20,000 nt of DNA from an uncultured virus (IMG/VR IMGVR_UViG_3300022934_002389). Taxonomy: Duplodnaviria > Heunggongvirae > Uroviricota > Caudoviricetes. Shown piece by piece: positions 1,119-15,263 of this stretch. The DNA is taken from the IMG/VR virus record IMGVR_UViG_3300022934_002389, positions 115,462-135,461 of that record. The stretch is one strand, 5' to 3'. A program made the position numbers and the translations under genes. The notes under the pieces were generated by a model. It saw nothing but the letters and a program-made list of their open reading frames with translations, did no database searches and was not told the DNA's origin. Numbering within the stretch: the stretch's first letter is position 1; the number at the start of each line of letters is the position of its first letter.

Positions 1119-1851
1119 TCTTAAGCCCTCCTTTTAAGTAATCAAACATTTGTTCCGCTATACGTTTATGTCCTTGAGGACTAGGGTGCGGATCTTGTTT
1201 TCCTATTATATCATAACTCATCGTTGGCATGATGTCTATGTCTTTATATAATTCTCGGTATTCTGGTGGATATTGTTTTGGTACAGATCCGAACTGCATC
1301 CACCAATAAGTTTTAACATTAAAACTTTTAAATATCCTATCTAATGATAAAACATGGCTGATACTTTCGTACATTCCTTGCACTTCGGTAAATGATCTTG
1401 TTCTGGCTTCGTGTATTGTTTTATTTGATGGAGGTAACGACTTATGAAAATCGTTACCCCATACGTTTACCCTAACCCATTTTTTATCATCGTGTGTATA
1501 AGTATAATCTTTTCTTTTCCAAAAACGTCCATCTTCAAACGGTACTTTAGTTTCTACATATTCATCCTTGCCTGTGTAATATTCCATCCTGAATGCTTCT
1601 GTAGTCTGTAAAACTGCAATTGTATTATCTAAGATTACTTGAGGTGTATTGACTAACCAGTCTATACTTGTCCTTACCATCCTTTGATTACTACCACAAC
1701 CTTTAGCATGTTGAATCGGAGTTCTGTCTAACAATTGTGCTAGATAGTAAGGCCAAACTAGTTTTTCTCTATCGGCTTCTTTGTATCCGTGGTCTTCGTT
1801 AATACCGCCTCCCCATGTAAAACTACATCCGTTAGTGTAAAGATATTTCAA
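1108..1851 (-). CDS. SGNH/GDSL-like hydrolase fold protein (paralogue 1)
   Basis: N-terminal GCSFT (block I-like), GCGSN (block II-like), C-terminal DPHPSPQGH (DxH block V-like). TTG start overlaps the lipase stop. Confidence 0.65.
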   Translation of the reverse strand: MKYLYTNGCSFTWGGGINEDHGYKEADREKLVWPYYLAQLLDRTPIQHAKGCGSNQRMVRTSIDWLVNTPQVILDNTIAVLQTTEAFRMEYYTGKDEYVETKVPFEDGRFWKRKDYTYTHDDKKWVRVNVWGNDFHKSLPPSNKTIHEARTRSFTEVQGMYESISHVLSLDRIFKSFNVKTYWWMQFGSVPKQYPPEYRELYKDIDIMPTMSYDIIGKQDPHPSPQGHKRIAEQMFDYLKGGLKNAA

Positions 1852-2597
1852 TCCATGTTTCCTATGTGTTTAATATATTCAGTCATTGAATGATCGCCAA
1901 AGTTGTCAATTTTGCCCTGTTTGAGTCCCATCCACATACCGCGCCAACGATCTTTAGTACGTTGCCAAGGTGTTAATGGACGAAACTTGCCATATGCGTT
2001 TATGTAATGTTCTGTACCGTGATGTTTGTAAGCCATAACTGCTAATGGAACTCTTGTTACAATATCGTTATTATTAACAAATCTATGATGCTCTACACAT
2101 AAACTTTTACAATAACCTTTCCAACCCACACGTGGAGAACCGAATGTGTAAAGTTCTTCTACTGGATTAATGCCTTCGTACAAATGGCATCTGCTTGCCA
2201 TAATAGTTGCCATTGCTGCACCTAAACTATGTCCACAGAACCATAATTTTTTCTTTTCATTTGCTTTGCGATCAATATCTTCTAGTACCATTGGCCAAAG
2301 TTCGTCAACTTCTGCTTTAAAGCCTCTGTGTACTCTTGATACTGTTTCTGCCATTACAGGCATTGCTTTTAAATCTGCCTTAATATCATTAAATTCGCTC
2401 GGCTGTGTTCCCCGGCAAGCAATAACTAAATCTTCTTTATTCATGAAGCGCCAAGCTTGTGCGCCATCTTTATTATAAAACTCTGTTGTTGTAAAGCCTA
2501 GTTTTTTGGCTTCTTTCGTTGCATCATCTAAATATGCTATACTTGCTAAACGTGCAAAAAGGAGACTGCGCTCCTTAAAATTCATTTCACTTATCAT
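1848..2597 (-). CDS. Class 3 lipase (alpha/beta hydrolase)
   Basis: IACRGT, VHRGF, nucleophile elbow GHSLGAA, YTFGSPRVG, NNNDIVTRVP and C-terminal DHSM: a complete Ser-Asp-His set of the Lipase_3 family. Confidence 0.93.
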   Translation of the reverse strand: MISEMNFKERSLLFARLASIAYLDDATKEAKKLGFTTTEFYNKDGAQAWRFMNKEDLVIACRGTQPSEFNDIKADLKAMPVMAETVSRVHRGFKAEVDELWPMVLEDIDRKANEKKKLWFCGHSLGAAMATIMASRCHLYEGINPVEELYTFGSPRVGWKGYCKSLCVEHHRFVNNNDIVTRVPLAVMAYKHHGTEHYINAYGKFRPLTPWQRTKDRWRGMWMGLKQGKIDNFGDHSMTEYIKHIGNMD

Positions 2598-2874
2598 TTT
2601 TGCCCTCCAAATCTGCTAAACGTTTTTCAATGCTATCAATTTTTGCAGTTATTTTTGGATATTTTTTACGCCAAGCATCTTCCGGTTGTTCTAACCAAGT
2701 AAGGCCCCACCGTTCTACCAGATAATCTATTGCTCTATCTACTTGAGCATATCCCCATAACCCTATACGAGTTGTGCTTATGTATGCAACAAAAATTGCA
2801 CCAAAAACTGACCCTGCTAGTGCTGTGTATATCCACAGCCTATCACTGGCCATCCTTTCTATCATTTCCCACAT
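2587..2874 (-). CDS. Small membrane protein, holin candidate
   Basis: One strong TM segment (LWIYTALAGSVFGAIFVAYI) and a basic/coiled-coil C-terminus. ATG at 2874 follows a GAGGG RBS; located in the lysis cluster. Confidence 0.5.
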   Translation of the reverse strand: MWEMIERMASDRLWIYTALAGSVFGAIFVAYISTTRIGLWGYAQVDRAIDYLVERWGLTWLEQPEDAWRKKYPKITAKIDSIEKRLADLEGKNDK

Positions 2875-3418
2875 CGTTAACACCCTCTATTAACTGTGTG
2901 TATTTATACCTACGTATACCTAAAGCATGTTTAGGATTGTATAAATCATATCTAACTTCGTTTTTTTGATTTCCGCCTAGTATTACCCAATACGTTTGTC
3001 CGTTTACTGTCTGTGTTTCAGTGTAAAAACCTACATGTCCTTGCCAACCTCTATCGCCTCTAGGAAATATTACAACGTCACCACGTTGAATATTTTCAGG
3101 TTCTACTGGATCGCCCCAAGTTAAAAAACTTCGTGCCATTAGAGGAACATCACTTACGCTTTCGCTGCCAGGTATACCGTCTAGTTCAAGTACAGCATTT
3201 ACAAATGCCGCACACCATTCTGTACGAACAGGATCAACACCTACAAATTCTTTGATTTGTTTCCTATCTTGACGTTCTTCTAAACCTATGAAAGGCTGTG
3301 CTGATACTACTGGATCCGGTTGAGATGCATTACATCCTGCTAAGACGCTCGTAAAACTAATCGTCCACAATAACTGCTTTATCAAGTGCCTGTTCTGCCT
3401 CTTTATAATAACCTTCAT
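2843..3418 (-). CDS. NlpC/P60/CHAP-superfamily peptidase (TIGR02594-like), predicted lipoprotein
   Basis: Catalytic WCAAFV and GHVGF motifs, GDVVIF, ILGGNQ; N-terminal signal ending in lipobox LAGC. Exact start uncertain. Confidence 0.85.
   Translation of the reverse strand: MKVIIKRQNRHLIKQLLWTISFTSVLAGCNASQPDPVVSAQPFIGLEERQDRKQIKEFVGVDPVRTEWCAAFVNAVLELDGIPGSESVSDVPLMARSFLTWGDPVEPENIQRGDVVIFPRGDRGWQGHVGFYTETQTVNGQTYWVILGGNQKNEVRYDLYNPKHALGIRRYKYTQLIEGVNDVGNDRKDGQ
2901..2908 (-). promoter_or_regulatory. Perfect T4 late promoter consensus TATAAATA
   Basis: Plus strand tatttata at 2901-2908, 26 nt upstream of the 2874 ATG and inside the 3' end of the NlpC/P60 gene. Confidence 0.6.
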
Positions 3419-3749
3419 AGGCTGCTATAATTGCTTGTTGTTGTTGAACCAACGCCCGTATATCTGAGAAGTTCAATCCTAGGTTACCGTAGCCTTCGCC
3501 CGTAAGTGCATACAGAGCAAATGCTTTGCCTTCGCTGTTTAGTTTGGCAATTACTGCGTCTACATTATTTTCATTGAGGACAATCCATTCAACATTCCGC
3601 ATATTGAGTTCGTCAACAGGAGGAAGTTCCAGTGTTGGTTTTTCAACTGGTGATGTGGTTATTTCAATCTGCTGTGGTTTCGTTGAGCAGGCCGCGAGAC
3701 TTATAAGTATCGTAAAGCCAAGGACACTCTTTGTTAAAAGCGATGCCAT
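3357..3749 (-). CDS. Outer-membrane spanin (Rz1-like o-spanin) lipoprotein
   Basis: Signal peptide with lipobox LAAC. ATG at 3749 preceded by AAAGGA. Overlaps the 3' end of the upstream TM/coiled-coil gene, downstream of an endolysin. Confidence 0.7.
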   Translation of the reverse strand: MASLLTKSVLGFTILISLAACSTKPQQIEITTSPVEKPTLELPPVDELNMRNVEWIVLNENNVDAVIAKLNSEGKAFALYALTGEGYGNLGLNFSDIRALVQQQQAIIAAYEGYYKEAEQALDKAVIVDD

Positions 3750-4152
3750 TTTCAGCGTTCCTTTCTTTGTCATTCAATTCTGCCCCCGAAAGCAATTCAA
3801 AACATCTGCCAGCATTTACAGTTCCTCTATTTACAGCACGTTCAATACTTTCAGCATTTGCTATTGCTGCTGCTGTTAAATCAATTTCCTGTAATTTGTC
3901 TGCTAGTCTTTGGTTTTGTCTACGTATAGCAGTGTATGCTTCGTTTAAACTAGCAAGTTCACTAGATGCTTTTTCATAGTCTTGTTCTAGTGAACTTATA
4001 GTTTGTTCATTTAATTCAACTGCGGTGTTAAGTTTAGCATTGTTTTCTTGTAGGATAGCCATACGTTCTTGTGTATCGTTATAATACCAATAACCTATAC
4101 CGCCTGCTCCTAAGAGCAACATGAACATAACAATAGCTAATTTAGCACCCAT
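3664..4152 (-). CDS. Inner-membrane spanin (Rz-like i-spanin)
   Basis: N-terminal TM anchor, long heptad coiled coil and two C-terminal Cys; immediately follows the endolysin. Confidence 0.72.
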   Translation of the reverse strand: MGAKLAIVMFMLLLGAGGIGYWYYNDTQERMAILQENNAKLNTAVELNEQTISSLEQDYEKASSELASLNEAYTAIRRQNQRLADKLQEIDLTAAAIANAESIERAVNRGTVNAGRCFELLSGAELNDKERNAENGIAFNKECPWLYDTYKSRGLLNETTAD

Positions 4153-4157
4153 ACCAC

Positions 4158-5015
4158 CTACCCTAGTAATTTTCCCAATGTTTTGGGTCCTACTATGCCA
4201 TCAGCAACAAGTCCATTTGCACTTTGCCATTTTTTTATAATGCGCTCTGTACCAGGACCAAAAATACCGTCTGCTGGAGAAATATCAAGTTTTTCTTGTA
4301 CTTCTGCAACTAGTGGTCCTCTGCTGCCTTTACGTATAGTTTGATTTAGATTTAATTCTTTTTCTTCAGGCTCTTCAAAATCACCACCTAACACATCCAT
4401 TGCATGTAGATAATGTTTTTTACGATCGTCTAAACCAATTGTACCACCGTTGATACGTTTTGTAGCGCCTACTACATCCATATCGTCACAATATTTGTTA
4501 ATGTTGTTTGTATCCCAAAACCAGCAAGCACTATCTAATGCACCTTTTTTAGTGCGTACATAGTCGACTGCTTCTTCTGGTGACATGTCTACTTCTTTAC
4601 CAAATTTTGTGTAGTTGTAACGTCCAGTAAGCTGAAGTATGCCGCCTCCGCGAAAACGCCAGCCATCACCGCTTTCTGGACTTCCGTTATCCATACGATT
4701 TGCATAAATGACGTTAGCAATCTTTTCAGGCTGTCTATGATAATCATTTGCATCTCTTCCTGCTCTTTTAAAATACTTTGGGAAAATTGTGTTTAATGCT
4801 TTTGCACTATAATTTAAGTTTTCGCTTAACACTCTAAAGCCGCCACTTTCGTGTCCACATTGAGCAACAAACATTGCTACACGTTCAATAGTGTCTACTT
4901 CCCATAAAGGAAGAATTTCACACATTGCTTCGTACCATTCTTCCCAGTCATCTCGGTGGATCAGTTCTTCTGCCATCCACGGTTCAAAATCAAATTTAAA
5001 ATTTTCAGCGCCCAT
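4158..5015 (-). CDS. Modular endolysin: GH19 catalytic domain plus C-terminal peptidoglycan-binding domain
   Basis: AMFVAQCGHESGGF, ENLNYS, GDGWRFRGGGILQLTGRYNY, TKRINGGTIGLDDR; C-terminal ADGIFGPGTE...GLVADGIVGPKT (PG_binding_1). Confidence 0.95.
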   Translation of the reverse strand: MGAENFKFDFEPWMAEELIHRDDWEEWYEAMCEILPLWEVDTIERVAMFVAQCGHESGGFRVLSENLNYSAKALNTIFPKYFKRAGRDANDYHRQPEKIANVIYANRMDNGSPESGDGWRFRGGGILQLTGRYNYTKFGKEVDMSPEEAVDYVRTKKGALDSACWFWDTNNINKYCDDMDVVGATKRINGGTIGLDDRKKHYLHAMDVLGGDFEEPEEKELNLNQTIRKGSRGPLVAEVQEKLDISPADGIFGPGTERIIKKWQSANGLVADGIVGPKTLGKLLG

Positions 5016-6467: not shown

Positions 6468-6527
6468 CTGTTGCAGGGAATGCTTCCTGCGTTGGAACAT
6501 TCCCATTATCCATACAAGGAGGACTAC

Positions 6528-7250
6528 ATGGGTGCTAAAAGGGCCAAACGGCACAACATTTCAAACGGCAATAATATTGTAAAACTTAATTCATTCCTTC
6601 CAAAAAAACAAAAAACAGTAAATATTCTACCTAGAAATTACAATCAAGAAAATTACGTTATCAAACTACTTGACTCTGATAAGAGTATTGTATTTGGTAT
6701 TGGACCTGCAGGTACAGGTAAAACTCTACTTGCTTGTCAAGTAGCAGTTAAGAAATTTCTTGAAGGAGAAGTAGAAAAAATTATTGTTACTCGTCCAGCA
6801 GTAAGTGCAGATGAAGATATTGGATTCTTACCAGGTACACTAGAACAAAAAATGGCACCTTGGACAAGACCTATTTTTGATGTATTTAGAGACTATTTTT
6901 ATGCTAACGAGATCGAAGGCATGATTGCAGAAGGTGTGATTGAAATTTCTCCATTAGCATATATGCGTGGTAGAACTTTCAAGGACAGTTTCATCATTGC
7001 TGATGAAATGCAAAACGCAACCCCAAACCAGATGAAAATGCTACTAACAAGAATTGGTACTGGTAGCAAAATGGTGGTAACTGGAGATCTTAATCAAGCA
7101 GATAGGTTAAAAGAAAATGGATTAATTGAATTTACTAAATTACTATCCAAGCATAACAGTCATAGGATAGACATTGTAAATTTTGTCAGCAAGGACATCG
7201 AACGGCATCAAGCGGTAAAAGAAGTTTTACAAGTATACGGCGAAGTCTAA
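6528..7250 (+). CDS. phoH: PhoH-family ATPase
   Basis: GPAGTGKT Walker A, TRPAV, GFLPG, AYMRGRTF, ADEMQN, VTGDLNQ. Start moved to ATG 6528, which follows the AAGGAGG RBS. Confidence 0.97.
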   Translation: MGAKRAKRHNISNGNNIVKLNSFLPKKQKTVNILPRNYNQENYVIKLLDSDKSIVFGIGPAGTGKTLLACQVAVKKFLEGEVEKIIVTRPAVSADEDIGFLPGTLEQKMAPWTRPIFDVFRDYFYANEIEGMIAEGVIEISPLAYMRGRTFKDSFIIADEMQNATPNQMKMLLTRIGTGSKMVVTGDLNQADRLKENGLIEFTKLLSKHNSHRIDIVNFVSKDIERHQAVKEVLQVYGEV

Positions 7251-7257
7251 ACATTCA

Positions 7258-7279
7258 GTAAGGGCTATTGAGCCCTTAC
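7258..7279. terminator. Hairpin between convergent genes, likely intrinsic (possibly bidirectional) terminator
   Basis: GTAAGGGCT-attg-AGCCCTTAC perfect 9-bp stem just after the phoH stop, followed by acTTTT. Confidence 0.65.
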
Positions 7280-7537
7280 ACTTTTAAATACAGGTGCTCC
7301 TAAGGGGTGCTGGTACTTATTTTCGTCTTGTTTTAACAAGTACATTAGATACTCATTTTCAGTATAAATGAGTTTCCAACTTTTCTCTTTGATTGGCGGT
7401 CGACCCATTGCGTCATAATAAATTTCACCAACGTGATACTTTTTAAACCATATACGTTTTTTACTCCAACTACTGCGTACAGGCCACCATGCGTAGTATT
7501 CATTCCACTCTATGTCTACTTCAATTGTTGCTGGCAT
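7265..7537 (-). CDS. Hypothetical aromatic/Trp-rich protein
   Basis: 90-aa ORF coupled to the upstream gene by a TAATG overlap. Confidence 0.7.
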   Translation of the reverse strand: MPATIEVDIEWNEYYAWWPVRSSWSKKRIWFKKYHVGEIYYDAMGRPPIKEKSWKLIYTENEYLMYLLKQDENKYQHPLGAPVFKSVRAQ

Positions 7538-8400
7538 TATATTATTTCACCCGCCCTTTGTCCTTTCGGCCCAATTATTTCATTTTGATGCCAATGTAAA
7601 TTTTGATTTATTTTTCCTGGATCTATATCCATATACTTTTTTACCAGTCCTATGGTTTTATCATGCACGCCTTTTACATATTCTTTTGTGGTTTCTTTCA
7701 TTTGGTAGTCAAAAGTTTCTGTTAAAAATTTATAATGCTCACCAGGCAAAGGGTGAGTATCCCAAAATAAATCATGAATATGTTTTTTATTCCAATTCAC
7801 TTTCCAAGTAAGATTATCTCTCCACAATGTATCGTAAAAACTTTTTCTCATCTCTTGTAATGCTGGTTTATAAAATCTAAGAAATTTATTATCGACTTTA
7901 AGTCTTTGGTCCATTCCAAGATGTGCTGTTTCATGCTGTTGATCAAACCATCTAGACAAATCTAACATTTGCAAAAAATGTACATTTGTTTTTAACTTTA
8001 ACATTTCATGAACAGGTTGAATATATGCCATGTCACGTAGTAATAAATCTGTTTGATCAATTTTCTTCAAATATTTGCGACTGTAATTTTCGTTGTTAAA
8101 AATATTACCATTTAAATGCCACCTATCTTCTGTTGAATCATATCTATCTATTCTTGCAACATTAGTCCAACACACTATTACTAAATCATTTTTTGTAAAT
8201 TTATGTTTTACATCGGCCATACCAACTCTAGTGGCAATAAATCTATTGCCAGCTCCGGATGCAGCATAATTATAAAAAGGAACTTGTAGGTCTAGGGCAA
8301 GAATATTTGCCCAAGTCATCCAGCAGTATTCTGTGAAACTACAACCAAATACAAAAAGTCTTTCTGGTTTATTTTTGTATAACTTAATTCTCTTCGCCAT
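7537..8400 (-). CDS. SGNH/GDSL-like hydrolase fold protein (paralogue 2)
   Basis: FVFGCSFT, NYAASGAGN, VIVCWT..R.D, C-terminal WDTHPLPGEH. Confidence 0.65.
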   Translation of the reverse strand: MAKRIKLYKNKPERLFVFGCSFTEYCWMTWANILALDLQVPFYNYAASGAGNRFIATRVGMADVKHKFTKNDLVIVCWTNVARIDRYDSTEDRWHLNGNIFNNENYSRKYLKKIDQTDLLLRDMAYIQPVHEMLKLKTNVHFLQMLDLSRWFDQQHETAHLGMDQRLKVDNKFLRFYKPALQEMRKSFYDTLWRDNLTWKVNWNKKHIHDLFWDTHPLPGEHYKFLTETFDYQMKETTKEYVKGVHDKTIGLVKKYMDIDPGKINQNLHWHQNEIIGPKGQRAGEII

Positions 8401-9079
8401 ATGTTACTGCTAGTGGAAAAATTTCTGCTATAACTTTTGCACATTCATGTGCAATATCCATGTGTTCTTTTTGTGTACCATTTGCACCACGTAATTCAAT
8501 GTAGTGTACCCAACTACGTAAAGTACCGTTCATATATAAACGTGTTTTGGTAAGTCCTTCTGGCAACACTTTGCGAGCAACTTCTTTAGCAATACCTTGT
8601 TTAATTGCCCAGTCATATGCTTTACCTGCTGTAAAACAAACATCTTGCTGTAGTTCTTCCCATTTTGTAACAAGTTCAGCAGCACCTTCTTGCCCTAGAT
8701 CGATTTCAATAGAGTTTTGCCTATTTTTATGATCCTGTAAACGGGCTTCACTTGTAATAAAAATCTCGCCCATTTCACCCGGCTCGGCATAACGTTGTGA
8801 GAACTCTTGGAATGCAAAACTACGATGACGCACAATTTGATGTGCAATATCACGTGTAGTATCAATCTCCATACACACGTTTACCATTTCGAGCGGGCTC
8901 CAGTGTGCATGTTTAATAAGATATTTTACAAGTTTTTCACTTGTTTCTGAATTCATTTGATTAGCAGGATTTGAAACCCTTGCACAAAATGCTACAAGAT
9001 CTAATAAATCATTGTCAGCAATGCCTTCGTTTACAAATTCTTCTGTTGGTTTAGTGTAACTTACTAAGCGAACGGCCAT
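8384..9079 (-). CDS. thyX: Flavin-dependent thymidylate synthase
   Basis: HWSPLE, signature RHRSFAFQEFSQRY (RHRx7S), AKEVARKVLP, GTLRSWVHYIELR, TQKEH. Confidence 0.97.
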   Translation of the reverse strand: MAVRLVSYTKPTEEFVNEGIADNDLLDLVAFCARVSNPANQMNSETSEKLVKYLIKHAHWSPLEMVNVCMEIDTTRDIAHQIVRHRSFAFQEFSQRYAEPGEMGEIFITSEARLQDHKNRQNSIEIDLGQEGAAELVTKWEELQQDVCFTAGKAYDWAIKQGIAKEVARKVLPEGLTKTRLYMNGTLRSWVHYIELRGANGTQKEHMDIAHECAKVIAEIFPLAVTYGEEN

Positions 9080-9249
9080 CCCGTTATTTCTCCTTTTAAA
9101 TTAGAAAGTCTTTGACTCAAGAAACTTATTGTTGTGTTAATGTGTCCTGTGTCATGGGGTTGTAGTAATGTTTTGTAATATTCTATTTCTTCTTCTAGTA
9201 CGTTTATACGTACAATATCATTTATCAGTTTTTTATTTTTAGTCACCAC
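9064..9249 (-). CDS. Small hypothetical protein
   Basis: 61-aa ORF filling the gap between the ferredoxin and thyX genes and overlapping both. Confidence 0.6.
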
Positions 9250-9580
9250 GGCCGGGCTCCTCTGAAAAATATTGCATTTTATTTTCTACGCCTTCCCATT
9301 CCTTTGCATCTGATGGAACATCTTCTGGACGCATTTCTGTAATATTTGGCCACACTTCACTCCATTTTCTATTGAAGTCTACCCACTGTTCTGTGCCCTC
9401 TACTGTGTCTGGTAAAATTGCATCAGCAGGACACTCTGGTTCGCATACACCACAGTCAATGCATTCATCAGGGTGAATAACCAACATGTTCTCACCTTCA
9501 TAAAAACAATCCACAGGACACACTTCTACACAATCCATGTGTTTACACCTAATACAGGCGTCATTTACAATATAAGTCAT
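9239..9580 (-). CDS. fdxA: 7Fe ([3Fe-4S]+[4Fe-4S]) ferredoxin, FdxA type
   Basis: [21 protein letters not shown]...[12 protein letters not shown] with a WPNIT C-terminal extension typical of proteobacterial FdxA. Confidence 0.93.
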
Positions 9581-10491
9581 AATGATCCTAATCTGATTAA
9601 TGTTGCTGCAAGGTTAATTTCTGGATCAACAACTAGCGTATGATCTACTAAACCTTGCTTAATAATTAGCACTGCTTTGTCTTGTTGTTCCTCATCTCCG
9701 AACAATTCTATATTGTCATAAAGCCAACGATAGATTTCTTCCATTTCTTCTGCTCGCACAGTACCACATAATAATTTACGTGCATCTTGAATCTTACCTG
9801 CTTTGAACAGTTCTACCATATCCAGTTTCCAGTCTGCTTCACCTGAGTCACCTTCTGTTGGCGAAACAAGTTTACCGTCTACACTATTCATTTGCACCAT
9901 GTTGATACATTTGCGCAAGTCTGGATATGTTGCTTTTACATATGTATCAAGTGTATCCAAGTCTGGAGTTACGCCTTCAGTAATTAGAATTTGGGCAACT
10001 CTTGCTGTAAACTCAGTTTGATCAATTTTTGCAATATGAAAACCTTGACATCTACTATGTATTGCTGGAATGATCCTATTTGGATAATTACAAGTAAGAA
10101 TAAAACGTGCAGTTGTATGATATTCTTCCATAACGCCACGTAATGCTGCTTGTGCGTTTGGCGACAAGTAATCAGCCTCATCTAGTAACACAACCTTGAA
10201 GTCACCAAATGGAATCATTTGCACAAACGCAACAATCTTGTCTCGCACATCATCTACTGAGTTTGTGCGACTTGCGTTGATTTCTAATATGTCTAATGGA
10301 TTTACATCAAGTTCATTAAAAAGTAATTTAGCAAGAGTAGTTTTACCAATGCCAGCATTGCCACTAAAAAGCAAATGCGGAATAGTTTTATCTTTGATCC
10401 ATGTTTTAACTTGGTTTCTTTGTGCGTCATCTCTAAATACATAACCGTCCACTGTGTTTGGACGATACTTCTCTACCCATAGTTCTTTCAT
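9577..10491 (-). CDS. Sliding-clamp loader AAA+ subunit (T4 gp44 / RFC small subunit-like)
   Basis: [17 protein letters not shown] Walker A, INAS, LLDEAD Walker B, SRC arginine finger. Start at ATG 10491 via ATGA overlap. Confidence 0.95.
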
Positions 10492-10670
10492 TCTTCTTCC
10501 TGTTCCCAATAGCGACTATACTTACTTGCTACATCTAACATACTATCTGGATATCCATTTTCTGTCAAGTATTTTCTAAATTCCATATCATTGCCTATAC
10601 ACTTTTTCGGAATAGGTTTAGGAAAGCCGTAGCGCCAACCGCTAGGTGGATCAAACATTATAACTTTCAT
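10488..10670 (-). CDS. Small hypothetical phage protein (DPPSGWRYGFPK motif)
   Basis: 60 aa from ATG 10670, with ATGA overlaps at both ends. Confidence 0.7.
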   Translation of the reverse strand: MKVIMFDPPSGWRYGFPKPIPKKCIGNDMEFRKYLTENGYPDSMLDVASKYSRYWEQEEE

Positions 10671-11461
10671 TTTGTTAACCATCCTGCGTCTTCCAATCCA
10701 GGTATCAACCATTCTTTTACAAGATGTTCGTAACATTCATCAGACAAATGGTCGCCATCACTTAAAGCTTTATTACCATATTCTCTTATGTAATATTCTT
10801 GTGCTCCTTGTGGAATATCTAAATAATGTGCAGATTCCATTCCTCCTAAACTTTCTTTAAGAGATGTATCTTTCAGCCTTCTGTACTCCCAAAGCAAAAC
10901 ATTAATATCTAACTGCTCTGCTAGTTCTAATGTCCAATATATTTTTTCTAGTGTCCAAAAGTTCCAACTATGCATGTCTTCCATAACTTTGAATTTAACA
11001 TAAGGCATTAGCCAATCTTTTTTAATACCAGGTATAGTTATATCCCAAACAGGATCTGTTTCTGATGGATCTCTATAACATGCAATGCTTTTTGTAATTT
11101 TCCTTAGTTCATGAGGATCGGTTGCAATCTTGTATAGATCTTCTGTATCTAAACAATCATATTTCAACAAGTCATCATAAACGTCTTCATTATCTGGCAT
11201 TCTTGATATAATTTGACTACGGTCACTACACATTTCAAGCACAACTGTATCAATACCAAGTTTGGCTGCTCGTATAATCGATTTGTGATATTCTTCGCTG
11301 CCTCTTCCTGGTATAGCAAAGTTATGCACTTCTACATCTGCATGTTTTTCAAACCATTTATCGATAGGCTGACAATGCTCTCCAACATTGTCTAGTAACG
11401 GATTTGTAATTTTATGACTTCCGCTACTATAACTGCTACCAATGATTCCTAATCTTAACAT
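10667..11461 (-). CDS. SGNH/GDSL-like hydrolase fold protein (paralogue 3, more divergent)
   Basis: GIIGSSYS, NFAIPGRGS, C-terminal DGDHLS. Confidence 0.55.
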   Translation of the reverse strand: MLRLGIIGSSYSSGSHKITNPLLDNVGEHCQPIDKWFEKHADVEVHNFAIPGRGSEEYHKSIIRAAKLGIDTVVLEMCSDRSQIISRMPDNEDVYDDLLKYDCLDTEDLYKIATDPHELRKITKSIACYRDPSETDPVWDITIPGIKKDWLMPYVKFKVMEDMHSWNFWTLEKIYWTLELAEQLDINVLLWEYRRLKDTSLKESLGGMESAHYLDIPQGAQEYYIREYGNKALSDGDHLSDECYEHLVKEWLIPGLEDAGWLTK

Positions 11462-11976
11462 AGTCCAAGTTCCTTGTATGCCATTTGCACACCTTTTGCT
11501 TGAAAATATGCATCTGCAAGTGCATTGTGTAAATCACTTTGCATTGCTTTGCGTGGATCTACTTTACAACAAGCAAACAATGTTCTGCTGTCACGCACTT
11601 GCCAAAATTGCCATGGAATAGGCTTGCCACGCTGTCGTAACATATCTTCAATAATAGTAATGTCAAAGCCATAACCATGACCCCAAAGCACATCAACACC
11701 TACCATCCATTTGGGCAAACTGTCTAAGAATACGTCAACATGTTCACGCCCTTCTGCACCGAACGCTTCTTCTTGTACTTTAGGATCTTGTTGTCCCCAC
11801 CATGCGATTGTATCATCGCTTACTGCACGATCTTGCGTATCTAAATCTAGTTTATAGTAAAACTCTCCATAAGGTTCGCTATTGCTTTTTGGATCGAACT
11901 TTACACCCCCGACTGTAAGGACTGCTGCTTGAGGTGTAGTGTGCAGTGTTTCTAAGTCGATCATTGCATGGATCAT
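11455..11976 (-). CDS. DEDD-family 3'-5' exo(ribo)nuclease (Rv2179c/RNase T-like)
   Basis: MIDLETL (Exo I), GYGFDI (Exo II), RDSRT, HNALADA (Exo III, DEDDh). ATG 11976 follows a GAGGA RBS. Confidence 0.88.
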   Translation of the reverse strand: MIHAMIDLETLHTTPQAAVLTVGGVKFDPKSNSEPYGEFYYKLDLDTQDRAVSDDTIAWWGQQDPKVQEEAFGAEGREHVDVFLDSLPKWMVGVDVLWGHGYGFDITIIEDMLRQRGKPIPWQFWQVRDSRTLFACCKVDPRKAMQSDLHNALADAYFQAKGVQMAYKELGLC

Positions 11977-11977
11977 T

Positions 11978-12568
11978 TTATTCCTCGCTGTTAGTAATAA
12001 GATTATAAATTTGCTGCCAGTTTTCAACCACAGTCACATCTGCTTCGACAAAGTCTAGATTATAGTCGTGTTGTATCAAAATAGGCTTGTGTCCTGCATA
12101 AAGTCCTGCCATTGCATTTTCAGGCTTATCTTCAATCCACCAATGACTATGTTCATAGGCTTTTAAATACTCATCTTTGTCTGCACCAGTTGCTATACAT
12201 TGCACTCTACGCATTGCGCCTCTGCCAAACCAATGTTCTAAGTTCATTTCTCGTAATCGTGCAGCATAAGGATCATCTGACAAACTAGTGATACATTCAA
12301 AATGCCAACCTTCTGATACTAGTTTATGTACCCAATCTACAGCATCACGCAAAGGATTTAAATATCCAATCCATGCACTGTTATTAAAAATTCCTACTAG
12401 ATGATCAGCAGTGTGTTGTTCAATACCATATTTGATTGACATTTTATATTGGGCTGGTGCTGCAATTTCATATCCTCGTGCAGACATCCAACGTTCAAAT
12501 GCTTCTTCCCAATTAAGAAAAACACCATCAACATCTGCTAGGATCTTGCGATCCTTGTTATAATTCAT
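11978..12568 (-). CDS. HAD-superfamily phosphatase / 5'(3')-nucleotidase-like (T4 30.2-like)
   Basis: DVDGV motif I, ITS motif II, K motif III, WIEDK motif IV, HDYN. Confidence 0.85.
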   Translation of the reverse strand: MNYNKDRKILADVDGVFLNWEEAFERWMSARGYEIAAPAQYKMSIKYGIEQHTADHLVGIFNNSAWIGYLNPLRDAVDWVHKLVSEGWHFECITSLSDDPYAARLREMNLEHWFGRGAMRRVQCIATGADKDEYLKAYEHSHWWIEDKPENAMAGLYAGHKPILIQHDYNLDFVEADVTVVENWQQIYNLITNSEE

Positions 12569-12596
12569 AGTTGAACCTCGTTGTTAATTATGCTTA

Positions 12597-12625
12597 AACA
12601 TAACACAAAACGTACACGATGTCAA
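12597..12625 (-). promoter_or_regulatory. Sigma70-type promoter for the HAD-exonuclease-clamp loader-ferredoxin-thyX run
   Basis: TTGACA(12620-12625)-N17-TATGTT(12597-12602) with a TGn extended -10; GAGG RBS before ATG 12568. Confidence 0.7.
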
Positions 12626-12630
12626 GTAAA

Positions 12631-13314
12631 TTATTCTCTATTACCTAATAGTGCTAATAAGAATTGGAACAAGTTCACAAAGTCAAGATATAAACTCAAT
12701 GCCATTTGGACACCATATTTGTCTGCAACTTCCATATTAGGAGCAGAAAGAAATAAATTTTTTGCTGTTTGCGTATCCCATGCTGTCATACCGACAAAAA
12801 TTAGTACACCGATAATACTAATTGCAAATGCAAATGCTGAACTTGCTAGAAAGATGTTTACAATACTAGCAATAATAATGCCAATTAATCCTACAATAAG
12901 AAAACTACCCATTGCGGTTAGATCACGTTTAGTTGTATATCCATATAAACTTGCTGCTGCAAATGTTGCACTTGTAATAAAAAATACCTGTGCAATACTT
13001 GTCATTGTATATACAACAAATATTGTACTCATACTAATTCCCATTACTGCTGTAAATGCGTAATAGAATCTTGTGATGCCTTGTAGTGTCCAATTGCCGC
13101 CTGCAAAACTATAATATAAAATCATACCTAGCGGCGCAAACATAACCACAAGACCTAATAATCCAGTTGGAATAAATCCTGTTGTGTAACATAGATATGC
13201 AACAAATCCACTTACTGCTAATCCTAGAGCAGTGTGATTGTACATATTAATCATAAATTTACGCAAGCCTTCATCATAAGCTCGACTTGCAACATTAGCA
13301 GTTCTTGCTACCAT
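12631..13314 (-). CDS. yccA: BAX inhibitor-1 / YccA (TMBIM) family membrane protein
   Basis: About 7 hydrophobic segments; DEGLRKFM..MYN, YGYTTKRDL, TAWDTQ, ALSLYLDFVNLF. Confidence 0.93.
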   Translation of the reverse strand: MVARTANVASRAYDEGLRKFMINMYNHTALGLAVSGFVAYLCYTTGFIPTGLLGLVVMFAPLGMILYYSFAGGNWTLQGITRFYYAFTAVMGISMSTIFVVYTMTSIAQVFFITSATFAAASLYGYTTKRDLTAMGSFLIVGLIGIIIASIVNIFLASSAFAFAISIIGVLIFVGMTAWDTQTAKNLFLSAPNMEVADKYGVQMALSLYLDFVNLFQFLLALLGNRE

Positions 13315-13315
13315 A

Positions 13316-13675
13316 TTAGTCTCCTATAAACTGTGCAAGTTCTGGAGCCTTCCAACCTTCTGGCTTCAGTACCTTGCCATCTTCACGTTTACGAACTTTG
13401 CCAGTGTCTGGATCGATCTTAGCAAAGTTTGTATCCATTACTTCTTTCCAAGCACCTTCTCCGTCCCAACCTGCGGCACGGATAGCACCCATAGTAACAA
13501 CTAGAATATCAACTAGTGCGTCAAGTTGTTCTACCTTATCGTTGTCTATAATGGCTTCTTCCAGTTCGTCTGTTTCTTCTCGAATTAGATCAAGATACAT
13601 TTTGTAGTTTGCTTCATTAGGCTCTTGATCACACGCTGAGCCAAAGCGTTCAATATCTGCGAATGGGTTTGTCAT
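13316..13675 (-). CDS. MazG-like / PRA-PH all-alpha NTP pyrophosphohydrolase (possible dUTPase)
   Basis: LIREETDEL..A, DALVDILVV, EV..TNFAK, REDGKVLKPEGW. Confidence 0.88.
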   Translation of the reverse strand: MTNPFADIERFGSACDQEPNEANYKMYLDLIREETDELEEAIIDNDKVEQLDALVDILVVTMGAIRAAGWDGEGAWKEVMDTNFAKIDPDTGKVRKREDGKVLKPEGWKAPELAQFIGD

Positions 13676-14082
13676 TATGCCCCCACAAAATTTGATGGGT
13701 CTATAGTTGTTGATTCGCCATTCGCATATTCGTCACCAATGTAAACATCATTTGGCTTTTCATTACTATACCCTATAATACATTCTTGATCAATCATTCT
13801 TAGTTCTATTGCGCCATTGCCATCATCAACATTAAATGCTCTTGTCCAACGACCATGTTCAATTAAAATCCAGTCACCTACTTGGTAATCATCTTTGTTG
13901 TCTGGACCTTTTGCATGTACTTTACCCCAGCGAGGATAAATGCCTCTAGTATTTCCATCATCATTAGTAATAATTAATCCACTTTTTGTTTTTTGTTCAC
14001 CAAAATACATATCAGTGACAAGAACTCTATCTTTAATAGGAGTTAAAGTTCCTTTAAAAACTTTTCCAAAATTTACAGCCAT
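13675..14082 (-). CDS. groES: GroES/Cpn10-like co-chaperonin
   Basis: LTPIKDRVLV, KTKSGLII mobile loop, GKVHAKGP, VGDWIL. Confidence 0.8.
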   Translation of the reverse strand: MAVNFGKVFKGTLTPIKDRVLVTDMYFGEQKTKSGLIITNDDGNTRGIYPRWGKVHAKGPDNKDDYQVGDWILIEHGRWTRAFNVDDGNGAIELRMIDQECIIGYSNEKPNDVYIGDEYANGESTTIDPSNFVGA

Positions 14083-14465
14083 TATTCACCTTTTCTAATA
14101 AAATTGCCGTCTTCGTCTTCAATCCATTCGTCTAATGTTTGTGTTTTTGATTTTTTTGTTTCAACAGGCTTTTCAGGCACTGGTTCATTATCAAACTCAT
14201 CAAACATTTCTTCTTCTAACTCAGTGATAGGTTTTGGTCTAACAACGGTTTCTTCTACAACACCTTTTGTGTTATAATATTCTTTAAGAACTTGTTCACG
14301 CTTGCGAACAATTTTACCACCTGGTCCTAGTTCATCTCCTCGTGCATTAACTCTTGCATTGCCTACAGCAGGAGTTAATTCATTTCTACTGATCAGAAGA
14401 TCAAGATCGATATTTTTACCTTGGGCTGTTTTATAAATTTTACGCCCTGATTGTTGTCTTGCCAT
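14082..14465 (-). CDS. Hypothetical phage protein with acidic tail
   Basis: 127-aa ORF, AAGGAG RBS, TAAGTA motif at 14490-14495 upstream; TAATG overlap with the groES-like gene. Confidence 0.75.
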   Translation of the reverse strand: MARQQSGRKIYKTAQGKNIDLDLLISRNELTPAVGNARVNARGDELGPGGKIVRKREQVLKEYYNTKGVVEETVVRPKPITELEEEMFDEFDNEPVPEKPVETKKSKTQTLDEWIEDEDGNFIRKGE

Positions 14466-14492
14466 ATTATTGATCTCCTTAATATGTACTAC

Positions 14493-15023
14493 TTATCTCA
14501 AGAACTCTCTCCAATCCAGGCCATACTGGATTGAATCTATACGATGCACACCTATCAAATACAGCACATAACTTGCTACACTTGATCCACGTCCTACACC
14601 CCATACAATGTCATTCTCACGCATAAAGTCTACAAGATAAATCATATAGCGTAGTAGATCGTGCATACCACGTTTTTTAAATTCGTCTAGTTCTTCCCAA
14701 ATACGATCTTGTACGTGTTGCGGGCAAGGTGTTTCTGCTTTACCTAGAACATATTCATATACGCTAATCGCTTTATATTCTTCAGGCATAAACCATTCGC
14801 TTTGACATACTCCGTCAAAAGTCTTTTGATCTACATCTAATGGAATATACTTTTGCAATGGATCCATACCTTGTTCTTCCATTGCAGTATTAAACTTGTC
14901 TATTTCGTCTGTAGGTGTACATAATACCACATGCACTTTATCCGCATGACCTGAATAGATCATATCGATTAAATCGCGATTTGTAAATCGAGGTATACCT
15001 AGGTCGTCTGTTCTCATAAGCAT
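14493..15023 (-). CDS. Stand-alone fragment of DNA polymerase III alpha (DnaE-like)
   Basis: R...EL..F, Y....VDFMRENDIVWGVGRGSSVASYVLYLIGVHRIDSIQYGLDWREFLR matches the DnaE GxGRGSxxxSLVxYxLGITxxDPxxxxLxFERFL segment; the ORF stops before PDxDxD. Confidence 0.88.
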   Translation of the reverse strand: MLMRTDDLGIPRFTNRDLIDMIYSGHADKVHVVLCTPTDEIDKFNTAMEEQGMDPLQKYIPLDVDQKTFDGVCQSEWFMPEEYKAISVYEYVLGKAETPCPQHVQDRIWEELDEFKKRGMHDLLRYMIYLVDFMRENDIVWGVGRGSSVASYVLYLIGVHRIDSIQYGLDWREFLR

Positions 15024-15029
15024 AAATGT

Positions 15030-15058
15030 ATTTTACGATACATTGATAAGATTGTCAA
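15030..15058 (-). promoter_or_regulatory. Near-consensus sigma70 promoter, probably producing a leaderless mRNA for the dnaE fragment
   Basis: TTGACA(15053-15058)-N17-TAAAAT(15030-15035)-6 nt-ATG(15023); no SD sequence. Confidence 0.72.
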
Positions 15059-15263
15059 GATCTGAATTAGTGTCTTCTTGTTCTTTTTTCTGTTGCTTAC
15101 GTCTTTCTTCTATTTCTACTTTGTAAGAATCAATAAGCAAAATCATTTGGTGACGTACATTTTCATCCTGCGTCATGAAATACATAGAATTAAGTTTTAG
15201 AACTTTTTGTTCTAATTCATTCATTGTAAATTCTGATAAATCGCCTAGATTAGGATGTATCAA
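15033..15263 (-). CDS. Small hypothetical helical protein
   Basis: 76-aa ORF; TTG start overlaps the upstream TGA. Confidence 0.7.
   Translation of the reverse strand: MIHPNLGDLSEFTMNELEQKVLKLNSMYFMTQDENVRHQMILLIDSYKVEIEERRKQQKKEQEDTNSDLDNLINVS

What the first reader, a model, noticed from the sequence alone, without database searches (positions are those of the whole stretch)
14493..15023. DnaE fragment ending just before the catalytic PDxDxD motif: candidate intein-free split C-family polymerase
Seen: a 176-aa ORF with the GRGS motif that ends at WREFLR*. The downstream gene is unrelated, no N-intein sequence is appended, there is no full PHP domain, and it has its own promoter. Known: in DnaE, FERFL is followed by NPER..PDxDxD carrying two catalytic aspartates. 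Inference: the rest of the palm is encoded elsewhere and assembles non-covalently into a minimal polymerase, or the fragment is a repurposed nucleotide-binding or host-replisome-interfering protein.
Basis: partly seen in the sequence, partly recalled or inferred. Interest (0 to 1): 0.7.

Follow-up and report, generated by a model that had tools for sequence, protein, structure and literature searches.

The report
Front half of split phage polymerase
This jumbo-phage gene encodes the front half of a stripped-down bacterial-type DNA polymerase, and a distant gene of the same phage encodes the catalytic back half; the two likely assemble without an intein, an arrangement already described from sequence in 2021 and still untested in the lab.

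Summary
Confirmed but already described. The 176-aa ORF matches E. coli DnaE 319-392 and stops six residues before the catalytic DxD strand. The window's contig is only 38% complete. A 257-kb record containing it at 99.97% identity encodes the missing half far away: a 185-aa ORF starting MPDIDIDF, near primase and DnaB. It keeps the three catalytic aspartates, K553, R639-P640 and the Y754/H760 nucleotide-selection motif. Both halves are under purifying selection (median dN/dS 0.12 and 0.16). The stop position holds in 151 of 151 viral loci. All 13 near-complete records with the front half also have the back half. No intein, fused form, PHP or HhH domain was found, and the phage also has a family B polymerase. 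This matches the split minimal Pol III alpha of group 2.2 (RaK2/PA5oct-like) jumbo phages described by Iyer et al. 2021 (PMC7824862); this scan noted it twice before on other genomes. Added here: dNTP-binding Arg390 is replaced by an acidic residue throughout the family, the thumb and most of the index finger are missing, and the gene has a conserved, likely leaderless sigma-70-type promoter. Assembly and activity are untested; co-folding was unavailable.

The parts
14493..15023 (-). Front (N-terminal, GS-motif) half of a split minimal Pol III alpha, 176 aa. R145-G146-S147 correspond to E. coli R362-G363-S364, and E173 sits in the R390 column. The partner lies outside the window, at G001:C1:19593-20150 (-), 185 aa (L088:1348-1905).
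   Evidence: partner
15030..15058 (-). Sigma-70-type promoter-like site (TTGACA-17-TAAAAT) inside the last codons and stop of the upstream gene. Six bases separate the -10 hexamer from the ATG and there is no Shine-Dalgarno-like word, so the mRNA is likely leaderless (inferred).
   Evidence: 80 of 80 loci; codons CTT, GAC and TAA in 40 of 40 distinct upstream sequences; no SD-like word in 40 of 40
15033..15263 (-). Upstream 76-aa gene of unknown function (phrog_15348, weak); a gene of similar size lies upstream in PA5oct and RaK2
14082..14465 (-). Downstream 127-aa gene of unknown function (phrog_14844), unrelated to DnaE; a clear homolog follows the front half in PA5oct
13675..14082 (-). GroES-like co-chaperonin (PF00166), conserved second downstream neighbour
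9577..10509 (-). RFC/gp44-type clamp-loader AAA+ subunit, in the same gene block as in PA5oct and RaK2

Best explanation
The 176-aa protein is the front half of a two-gene minimal C-family polymerase core and likely binds, without an intein, the 185-aa back half encoded far away in the same phage, which would give a roughly 360-residue, low-processivity DNA polymerase working beside the phage's family B replicase. Shown by sequence: the front half carries the GS motif; the back half carries D401/D403/D555, K553, R639-P640 and the Y754-F756-K758-H760 motif (E. coli numbering); both are conserved, co-occurring genes. Inferred: the halves form a heterodimer that completes the palm sheet; it adds dNTPs (the His steric gate is kept) to a primed template; with no PHP, thumb, distal fingers or HhH it would add only a few bases per binding. 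Its most likely job is short-patch synthesis, either extending primase-made primers or filling gaps in recombination and repair. That role is the weakest step (about 0.4).
For: The back half is in G001, which holds the window's contig with 35 mismatches in 135,464 aligned bases. It starts at the catalytic strand: of 80 loci, 64 have ATG and 12 TTG at the MPDID position, and the in-frame open stretch upstream is 45 codons or fewer in all 80. The catalytic residues D3, D5, K63, D65, R132, P133, K163 and H165 are invariant in 74 of 74 aligned back halves at 34-100% identity, mapped to Pol III and to function by the E. coli structure paper. The front half stops after EFLR(D) in 80 of 80 close loci and 33-35 residues after GRGS in 71 of 71 distant loci. 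Median dN/dS is 0.124 (1195 of 1225 pairs usable) and 0.155 (618 of 2701 pairs usable). The back half is present in 13 of 13 records at least 90% complete and in 19 of 29 overall. Pairwise identities of the two halves track each other over 22 genomes (Spearman 0.86). Folded alone, the back half's palm (residues 1-70) has pLDDT 50-67 and no strands while its fingers score mostly above 85, as expected if it needs a partner. In E. coli the segment 271-393 stays fixed while the part with D401/D403 moves on DNA binding, so the break falls on a natural hinge. The back half lies beside primase, DnaB and UvsW in G001, PA5oct and RaK2.
Against: Binding and activity were not shown by any search. The dNTP-contacting Arg390 is Glu in 69 of 69 aligned front halves and E or D in 134 of 137 representatives with the GS motif; R390A lowers E. 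coli catalytic efficiency 27-fold. The six-residue loop with Arg396 is absent from both halves in this lineage, and the index-finger stretch with R709/R710/K714/K715 is deleted (27 residues between R132 and Y159, against 115 in E. coli). The thumb, a main DNA grip, is missing. Sequence hits of the back half to solved Pol III are individually weak (profile E 0.01-0.1; PF17657 in only 16 of 74 members). The identity correlation is expected for any two core genes and is not evidence of contact. The two genes sit in different operons with different upstream signals.
Confidence: 0.65

Rival explanations
1. The halves do pair, but the rebuilt nucleotide pocket has changed the chemistry. The enzyme would be a specialised nucleotidyltransferase, for example template-independent end addition, unblocking of chain-terminated 3' ends by pyrophosphorolysis, or use of a modified dNTP, and not an ordinary gap-filling polymerase.
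For: Family-wide acidic residue at the Arg390 column, loss of the Arg396 loop, the thumb and most of the index finger, and new conserved basic residues (front K/R176 in 69 of 69; back K135 in 74 of 74, R136 and K162 in 73 of 74). A family B replicase is already present.
Against: The template-contacting R639-P640, the primer-binding K553, the base-stacking Y754 (67 of 74) and the rNTP steric gate H760 are all kept, which fits templated dNTP addition. The new basic residues could simply replace the lost ones.
Confidence: 0.2
2. The front half acts alone, as a decoy that interferes with the host replisome or as a nucleotide-binding protein.
For: It has its own conserved promoter, folds with good confidence alone (pLDDT 84.5), and has a 95-residue N-terminal part with no family match.
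Against: An exactly complementary back half is present in 13 of 13 near-complete records and starts where the front half ends. The front half has none of the clamp-, tau- or epsilon-binding regions of alpha (regions known).
Confidence: 0.06
3. The halves are joined covalently after all, by protein trans-splicing or by RNA-level joining.
For: The break lies right next to the catalytic strand, and split inteins occur in fractured phage genes (search listing only).
Against: No intein family matched 69 front or 74 back halves. The front half ends 0-2 residues after EFL[KR] and the back half starts at the catalytic strand, leaving no room for one. No joints were seen in contigs of four RNA runs laid on the front half (contigs are weak evidence).
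Confidence: 0.02
4. Pseudogene or assembly error.
For: The contig is an incomplete metagenomic record.
Against: At least 8000 homologs of near length (the 120 listed are 174-177 aa). The same stop is seen in cultured phages. dN/dS is 0.12. No full-length or fused relative was found.
Confidence: 0.01

Closest known systems
Split minimal DNA polymerase III alpha of group 2.2 jumbo phages (Iyer et al. 2021, PMC7824862; PHROG 11127 front half, PHROG 11778 back half)
   Same: [quoted passage not shown]
   Different: An uncultured phage whose back half begins at Met-Pro-Asp with no N-terminal extension (RaK2-type halves carry a basic extension). The acidic residue at Arg390, the deletion map and the leaderless-type promoter are not mentioned in the passages I read; figure 3b and the supplement were not seen.
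Bacterial DnaE (E. coli Pol III alpha, M. tuberculosis DnaE1)
   Same: GS motif, three catalytic aspartates, K553, R639-P640 and the Y754/F756/K758/H760 motif; the 17 best-ranked Foldseek rows for the front-half model are all DnaE or PolC, though none reached E 0.001.
   Different: About 361 residues in two chains against 1160 in one; no PHP, thumb, most of the index finger, distal fingers or HhH; Arg390 is acidic and the Arg396 loop is absent.
Split-intein DnaE of cyanobacteria (recalled; fractured phage genes with split inteins seen as a search listing only)
   Same: DnaE sequence encoded by two separate genes.
   Different: No intein halves here; the protein is a minimal core and not a full replicase.

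Membership tests
Group 2.2 jumbo phage split minimal Pol III alpha | Stand-alone N-terminal NTP-binding (GS motif) subdomain | tested here: met
   (phrog_11127, E 1.2e-41, profile 11-171 of 171)
Group 2.2 jumbo phage split minimal Pol III alpha | Stand-alone C-terminal Mg/template-binding subdomain in a distant gene | tested here: met
   G001:19593-20150, about 230 kb from the front half along the record; absent from the 38%-complete G000 itself (phrog_11778, E 2.1e-59)
Group 2.2 jumbo phage split minimal Pol III alpha | No other Pol III alpha domains in the genome | tested here: met
   PHP (PF02811) and HhH (PF14579) found in 0 of 5 records including G001 (72% complete), G004 (complete), PA5oct and RaK2. 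OB and C-terminal domains were not searched.
Group 2.2 jumbo phage split minimal Pol III alpha | Family B polymerase and T4-like replication set in the same genome | tested here: met
   PF00136 E 1e-24 in the 898-aa ORF at G000:97843-100539; DnaB, Toprim primase and SF2 helicase in G001; clamp loader in the window
Group 2.2 jumbo phage split minimal Pol III alpha | gp23-type major capsid protein and phage sigma factor of group 2 | not tested
   not searched
Group 2.2 jumbo phage split minimal Pol III alpha | Identity with the accessions listed by the authors | not testable with these tools
   supplement not readable; figure not held
C-family DNA polymerase (DnaE) | Three catalytic aspartates, GS motif, K553, and Y754/H760 motif | tested here: met
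   across the two halves:
C-family DNA polymerase (DnaE) | dNTP-contacting basic residues R390, R396, R709/R710 | tested here: not met
   E at R390 in 69 of 69, E or D in 134 of 137; loop and index-finger stretch deleted
C-family DNA polymerase (DnaE) | PHP, thumb, full fingers and HhH in one chain | tested here: not met
C-family DNA polymerase (DnaE) | Template-directed dNTP incorporation | not testable with these tools
   needs biochemistry
Split-intein DnaE | N- and C-intein domains on the halves | tested here: not met
   no intein family in 69 front or 74 back halves; no spare sequence at either junction

The most novel reading that the evidence does not exclude
The two 180-residue proteins form the smallest C-family polymerase core, with a rebuilt triphosphate pocket (acidic residue at Arg390, new basic residues at the front half's C-terminus and at N757), and carry out a dedicated, essential step that T4-like replisomes lack, such as Pol-alpha-like extension of primase primers before hand-off to the family B enzyme, or unblocking of chain-terminated ends.
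Probability: 0.25. Interest if true: 0.7.

Novelty: new member of a known kind. Interest (0 to 1): 0.27.

Why it matters
The arrangement itself is in print. The value lies in testability: the pair is a conserved core feature of a very common phage group (1232 clusters at 50% identity matched, a figure that includes any full-length DnaE hits), and my literature searches found no experimental test. If active, two small soluble proteins would define the minimal Pol III catalytic core and show how it works without a thumb or the canonical dNTP arginines. They would also explain why phages with a family B replicase keep a second polymerase.

Full report
Observation. The ORF is as described: 14493-15023 on the minus strand, 176 aa, with GRGS at 144-147 and ending WREFLR*. 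Residues 95-175 match only positions 14-94 of the 260-position Pfam family PF07733. A profile of the family aligns without gaps to E. coli alpha 319-392. Against M. tuberculosis DnaE1 the match ends at residue 406, and the catalytic strand MPDIDIDF begins at 413, so six residues are skipped. The next gene is unrelated.

Genome. The window lies at the end of a 135,461-base linear virus record estimated 38% complete. It encodes a family B polymerase (898 aa; PF00136 E 1e-24 on the identical stretch of G001) and a clamp loader. The closest cultured relatives of the ORF are PA5oct-like (44% identity), RaK2-like, XacN1 and Atu_ph07 jumbo phages (60 of 185 records listed). The order of small gene, this ORF, a 113-127-aa gene, GroES and clamp loader recurs in PA5oct and RaK2.

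The partner. No second DnaE piece is in the contig. Record G001 (256,558 bases, 72% complete) contains the contig with 35 mismatches in 135,464 aligned bases. A weak finger-domain hit there (E 0.0014) led to a 185-aa ORF at G001:19593-20150 whose ATG overlaps the previous gene's end and reads MPDIDIDF. It matches PHROG 11778 at E 2e-59, and the front half matches PHROG 11127 at E 1e-41; both are labelled DNA polymerase. The two genes are about 230 kb apart along this record, 43 kb apart in PA5oct and 33 kb in RaK2. In all three the back half sits between a UvsW-type helicase and the primase-DnaB pair.

Conservation. All 80 close viral loci stop after EFLR or EFLRD. All 71 distant loci stop 33-35 residues after the GRGS glycine; some of these were found with a pattern from the C-terminus, which favours that motif. 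In the unbiased scan of 1.84 billion representatives, the best 150 are 72-222 aa. Of these, 137 have the GS motif; 126 of the 137 end 33-35 residues after it, and none has a DxDxD after it. The 13 without the motif lack the C-terminal part. Median dN/dS is 0.124 for the front half (50 distinct sequences, 1195 of 1225 pairs with dS 0.05-1.5) and 0.155 for the back half (74 distinct, 618 of 2701 pairs, 874 saturated). Of 29 large records carrying the front half, 19 have the back half, including 13 of 13 at least 90% complete; the 10 misses are 28-66% complete. Conversely, 3 of 5 records picked by the back half have the front half; the 2 misses are 73% and 46% complete. No fused form, no intein and no PHP or HhH gene (0 of 5 records) was found.

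Active site. I took residue roles from passages of a 2026 E. coli Pol III structure preprint (10.64898/2026.06.29.735100). The front half supplies R362-G363-S364 (R145-G146-S147, invariant in 69 of 69). The back half supplies D401 and D403 (D3, D5), K553 and D555 (K63, D65), R639-P640 (R132-P133), K758 and H760 (K163, H165), all invariant in 74 of 74, plus Y754 (67 of 74) and F756 (73 of 74). The D401/D403 and K553/D555 numbering is carried over from the M. tuberculosis alignment and is an inference. What is lost: about 90 residues between the DxD strand and K553 (the thumb), about 88 between R639 and Y754 (most of the index finger, with R709, R710, K714, K715), the Arg396 loop, and everything after the helix that follows H760. 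Arg390 is Glu in 69 of 69 and E or D in 134 of 137 (one further row is E on inspection, one is truncated, one has Tyr). New conserved basic residues, K/R176 in the front half and K135, R136 and K162 in the back half, could replace the lost ones; this is inferred. The preprint reports that residues 271-393 stay fixed while the D401/D403 part moves on DNA binding, so the break coincides with a rigid-body boundary.

Models. The front half folds alone at pLDDT 84.5. Its best Foldseek rows are all DnaE or PolC, but none reaches E 0.001 (best 0.0044). The back half folds at pLDDT 80 overall; residues 1-70 score only 50-67 and form no strands, consistent with a palm that needs its partner. A model of the complex could not be obtained.

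Promoter. TTGACA-17-TAAAAT (11 of 12) lies at 15058-15030. The region has no more such sites than shuffles, but TTGAC[A/G] keeps the same spacing in 80 of 80 close loci. In 40 of 40 distinct upstream sequences the overlapping codons are CTT, GAC and TAA, which make up 21% of Leu codons, 28% of Asp codons and 52% of stops in this genome. These loci are related, so they are not 40 independent trials. Six bases separate the -10 hexamer from the ATG and no SD-like word occurs (40 of 40), so a leaderless mRNA is likely. Several distant relatives have a similar site; RaK2-type ones do not show one in the 40 bases examined. Contigs from four metatranscriptome runs cover parts of the gene and show no joints, which is weak evidence only.

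Prior art. Iyer et al. [quoted passage not shown] The Atu_ph07 and Sharanji papers (PMC6102473, PMC11895373; passages) simply annotate one Pol III alpha gene. Searches found no experimental study; the library lacks most subscription papers. Two earlier notes of this scan reach the same reading on other genomes; I saw them after finding the paper and the partner.

Verdict. A real, conserved feature, and a new member of a described kind. The most likely mechanism is non-covalent assembly into a distributive, template-directed minimal polymerase for short-patch synthesis (0.65). The main rival is altered chemistry from the rebuilt nucleotide pocket (0.2). Interest 0.27.

Noticed in passing
window 15024-15058 (-): The promoter of the front-half gene is embedded in the upstream gene's last codons and stop and points to a leaderless start; some back-half loci (L137, L140) also have a TTGAC-type site directly before their start codon.
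   Followed up: partly
window 14490-14496 (-): The front half's stop codon is part of TAAGTA or TAAATA in most close loci, possibly a late-promoter-like word serving the downstream gene and GroES; not tested.
   Followed up: no
L283 (G006), L284 (G007): Front halves with a longer open frame (188 aa); G006 has an insertion of about 9 residues just before the first conserved helix and ends at the same WREFLR.
   Followed up: partly
L183-L196 (RaK2-like records): RaK2-type back halves have a basic N-terminal extension ending YRKART or YKKART before the catalytic strand, which could stand in for the lost Arg396 loop; this lineage starts directly at MPDIDID.
   Followed up: no
window 1848-5015 (-): Likely lysis block: class 3 lipase (PF01764), a GH19 endolysin with a peptidoglycan-binding domain, and small membrane or lipoprotein-like genes.
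   Followed up: partly
window 6471-13675: Auxiliary genes: PhoH, ThyX, ferredoxin (Fer4 with DUF3470), Rv2179c-like exonuclease, NT5C, Bax-inhibitor-1 family membrane protein, MazG/PRA-PH-like protein.
   Followed up: partly
G000:C1:16000-71000: A roughly 55-kb run of about 55 co-oriented genes; many N-termini have Cys-rich motifs resembling radical-SAM proteins or sugar-modifying enzymes (read by eye, not searched).
   Followed up: no
P0126: A 360-aa protein with about 190 unrelated residues ahead of a front half; it may be a read-through or fusion with an upstream gene.
   Followed up: partly
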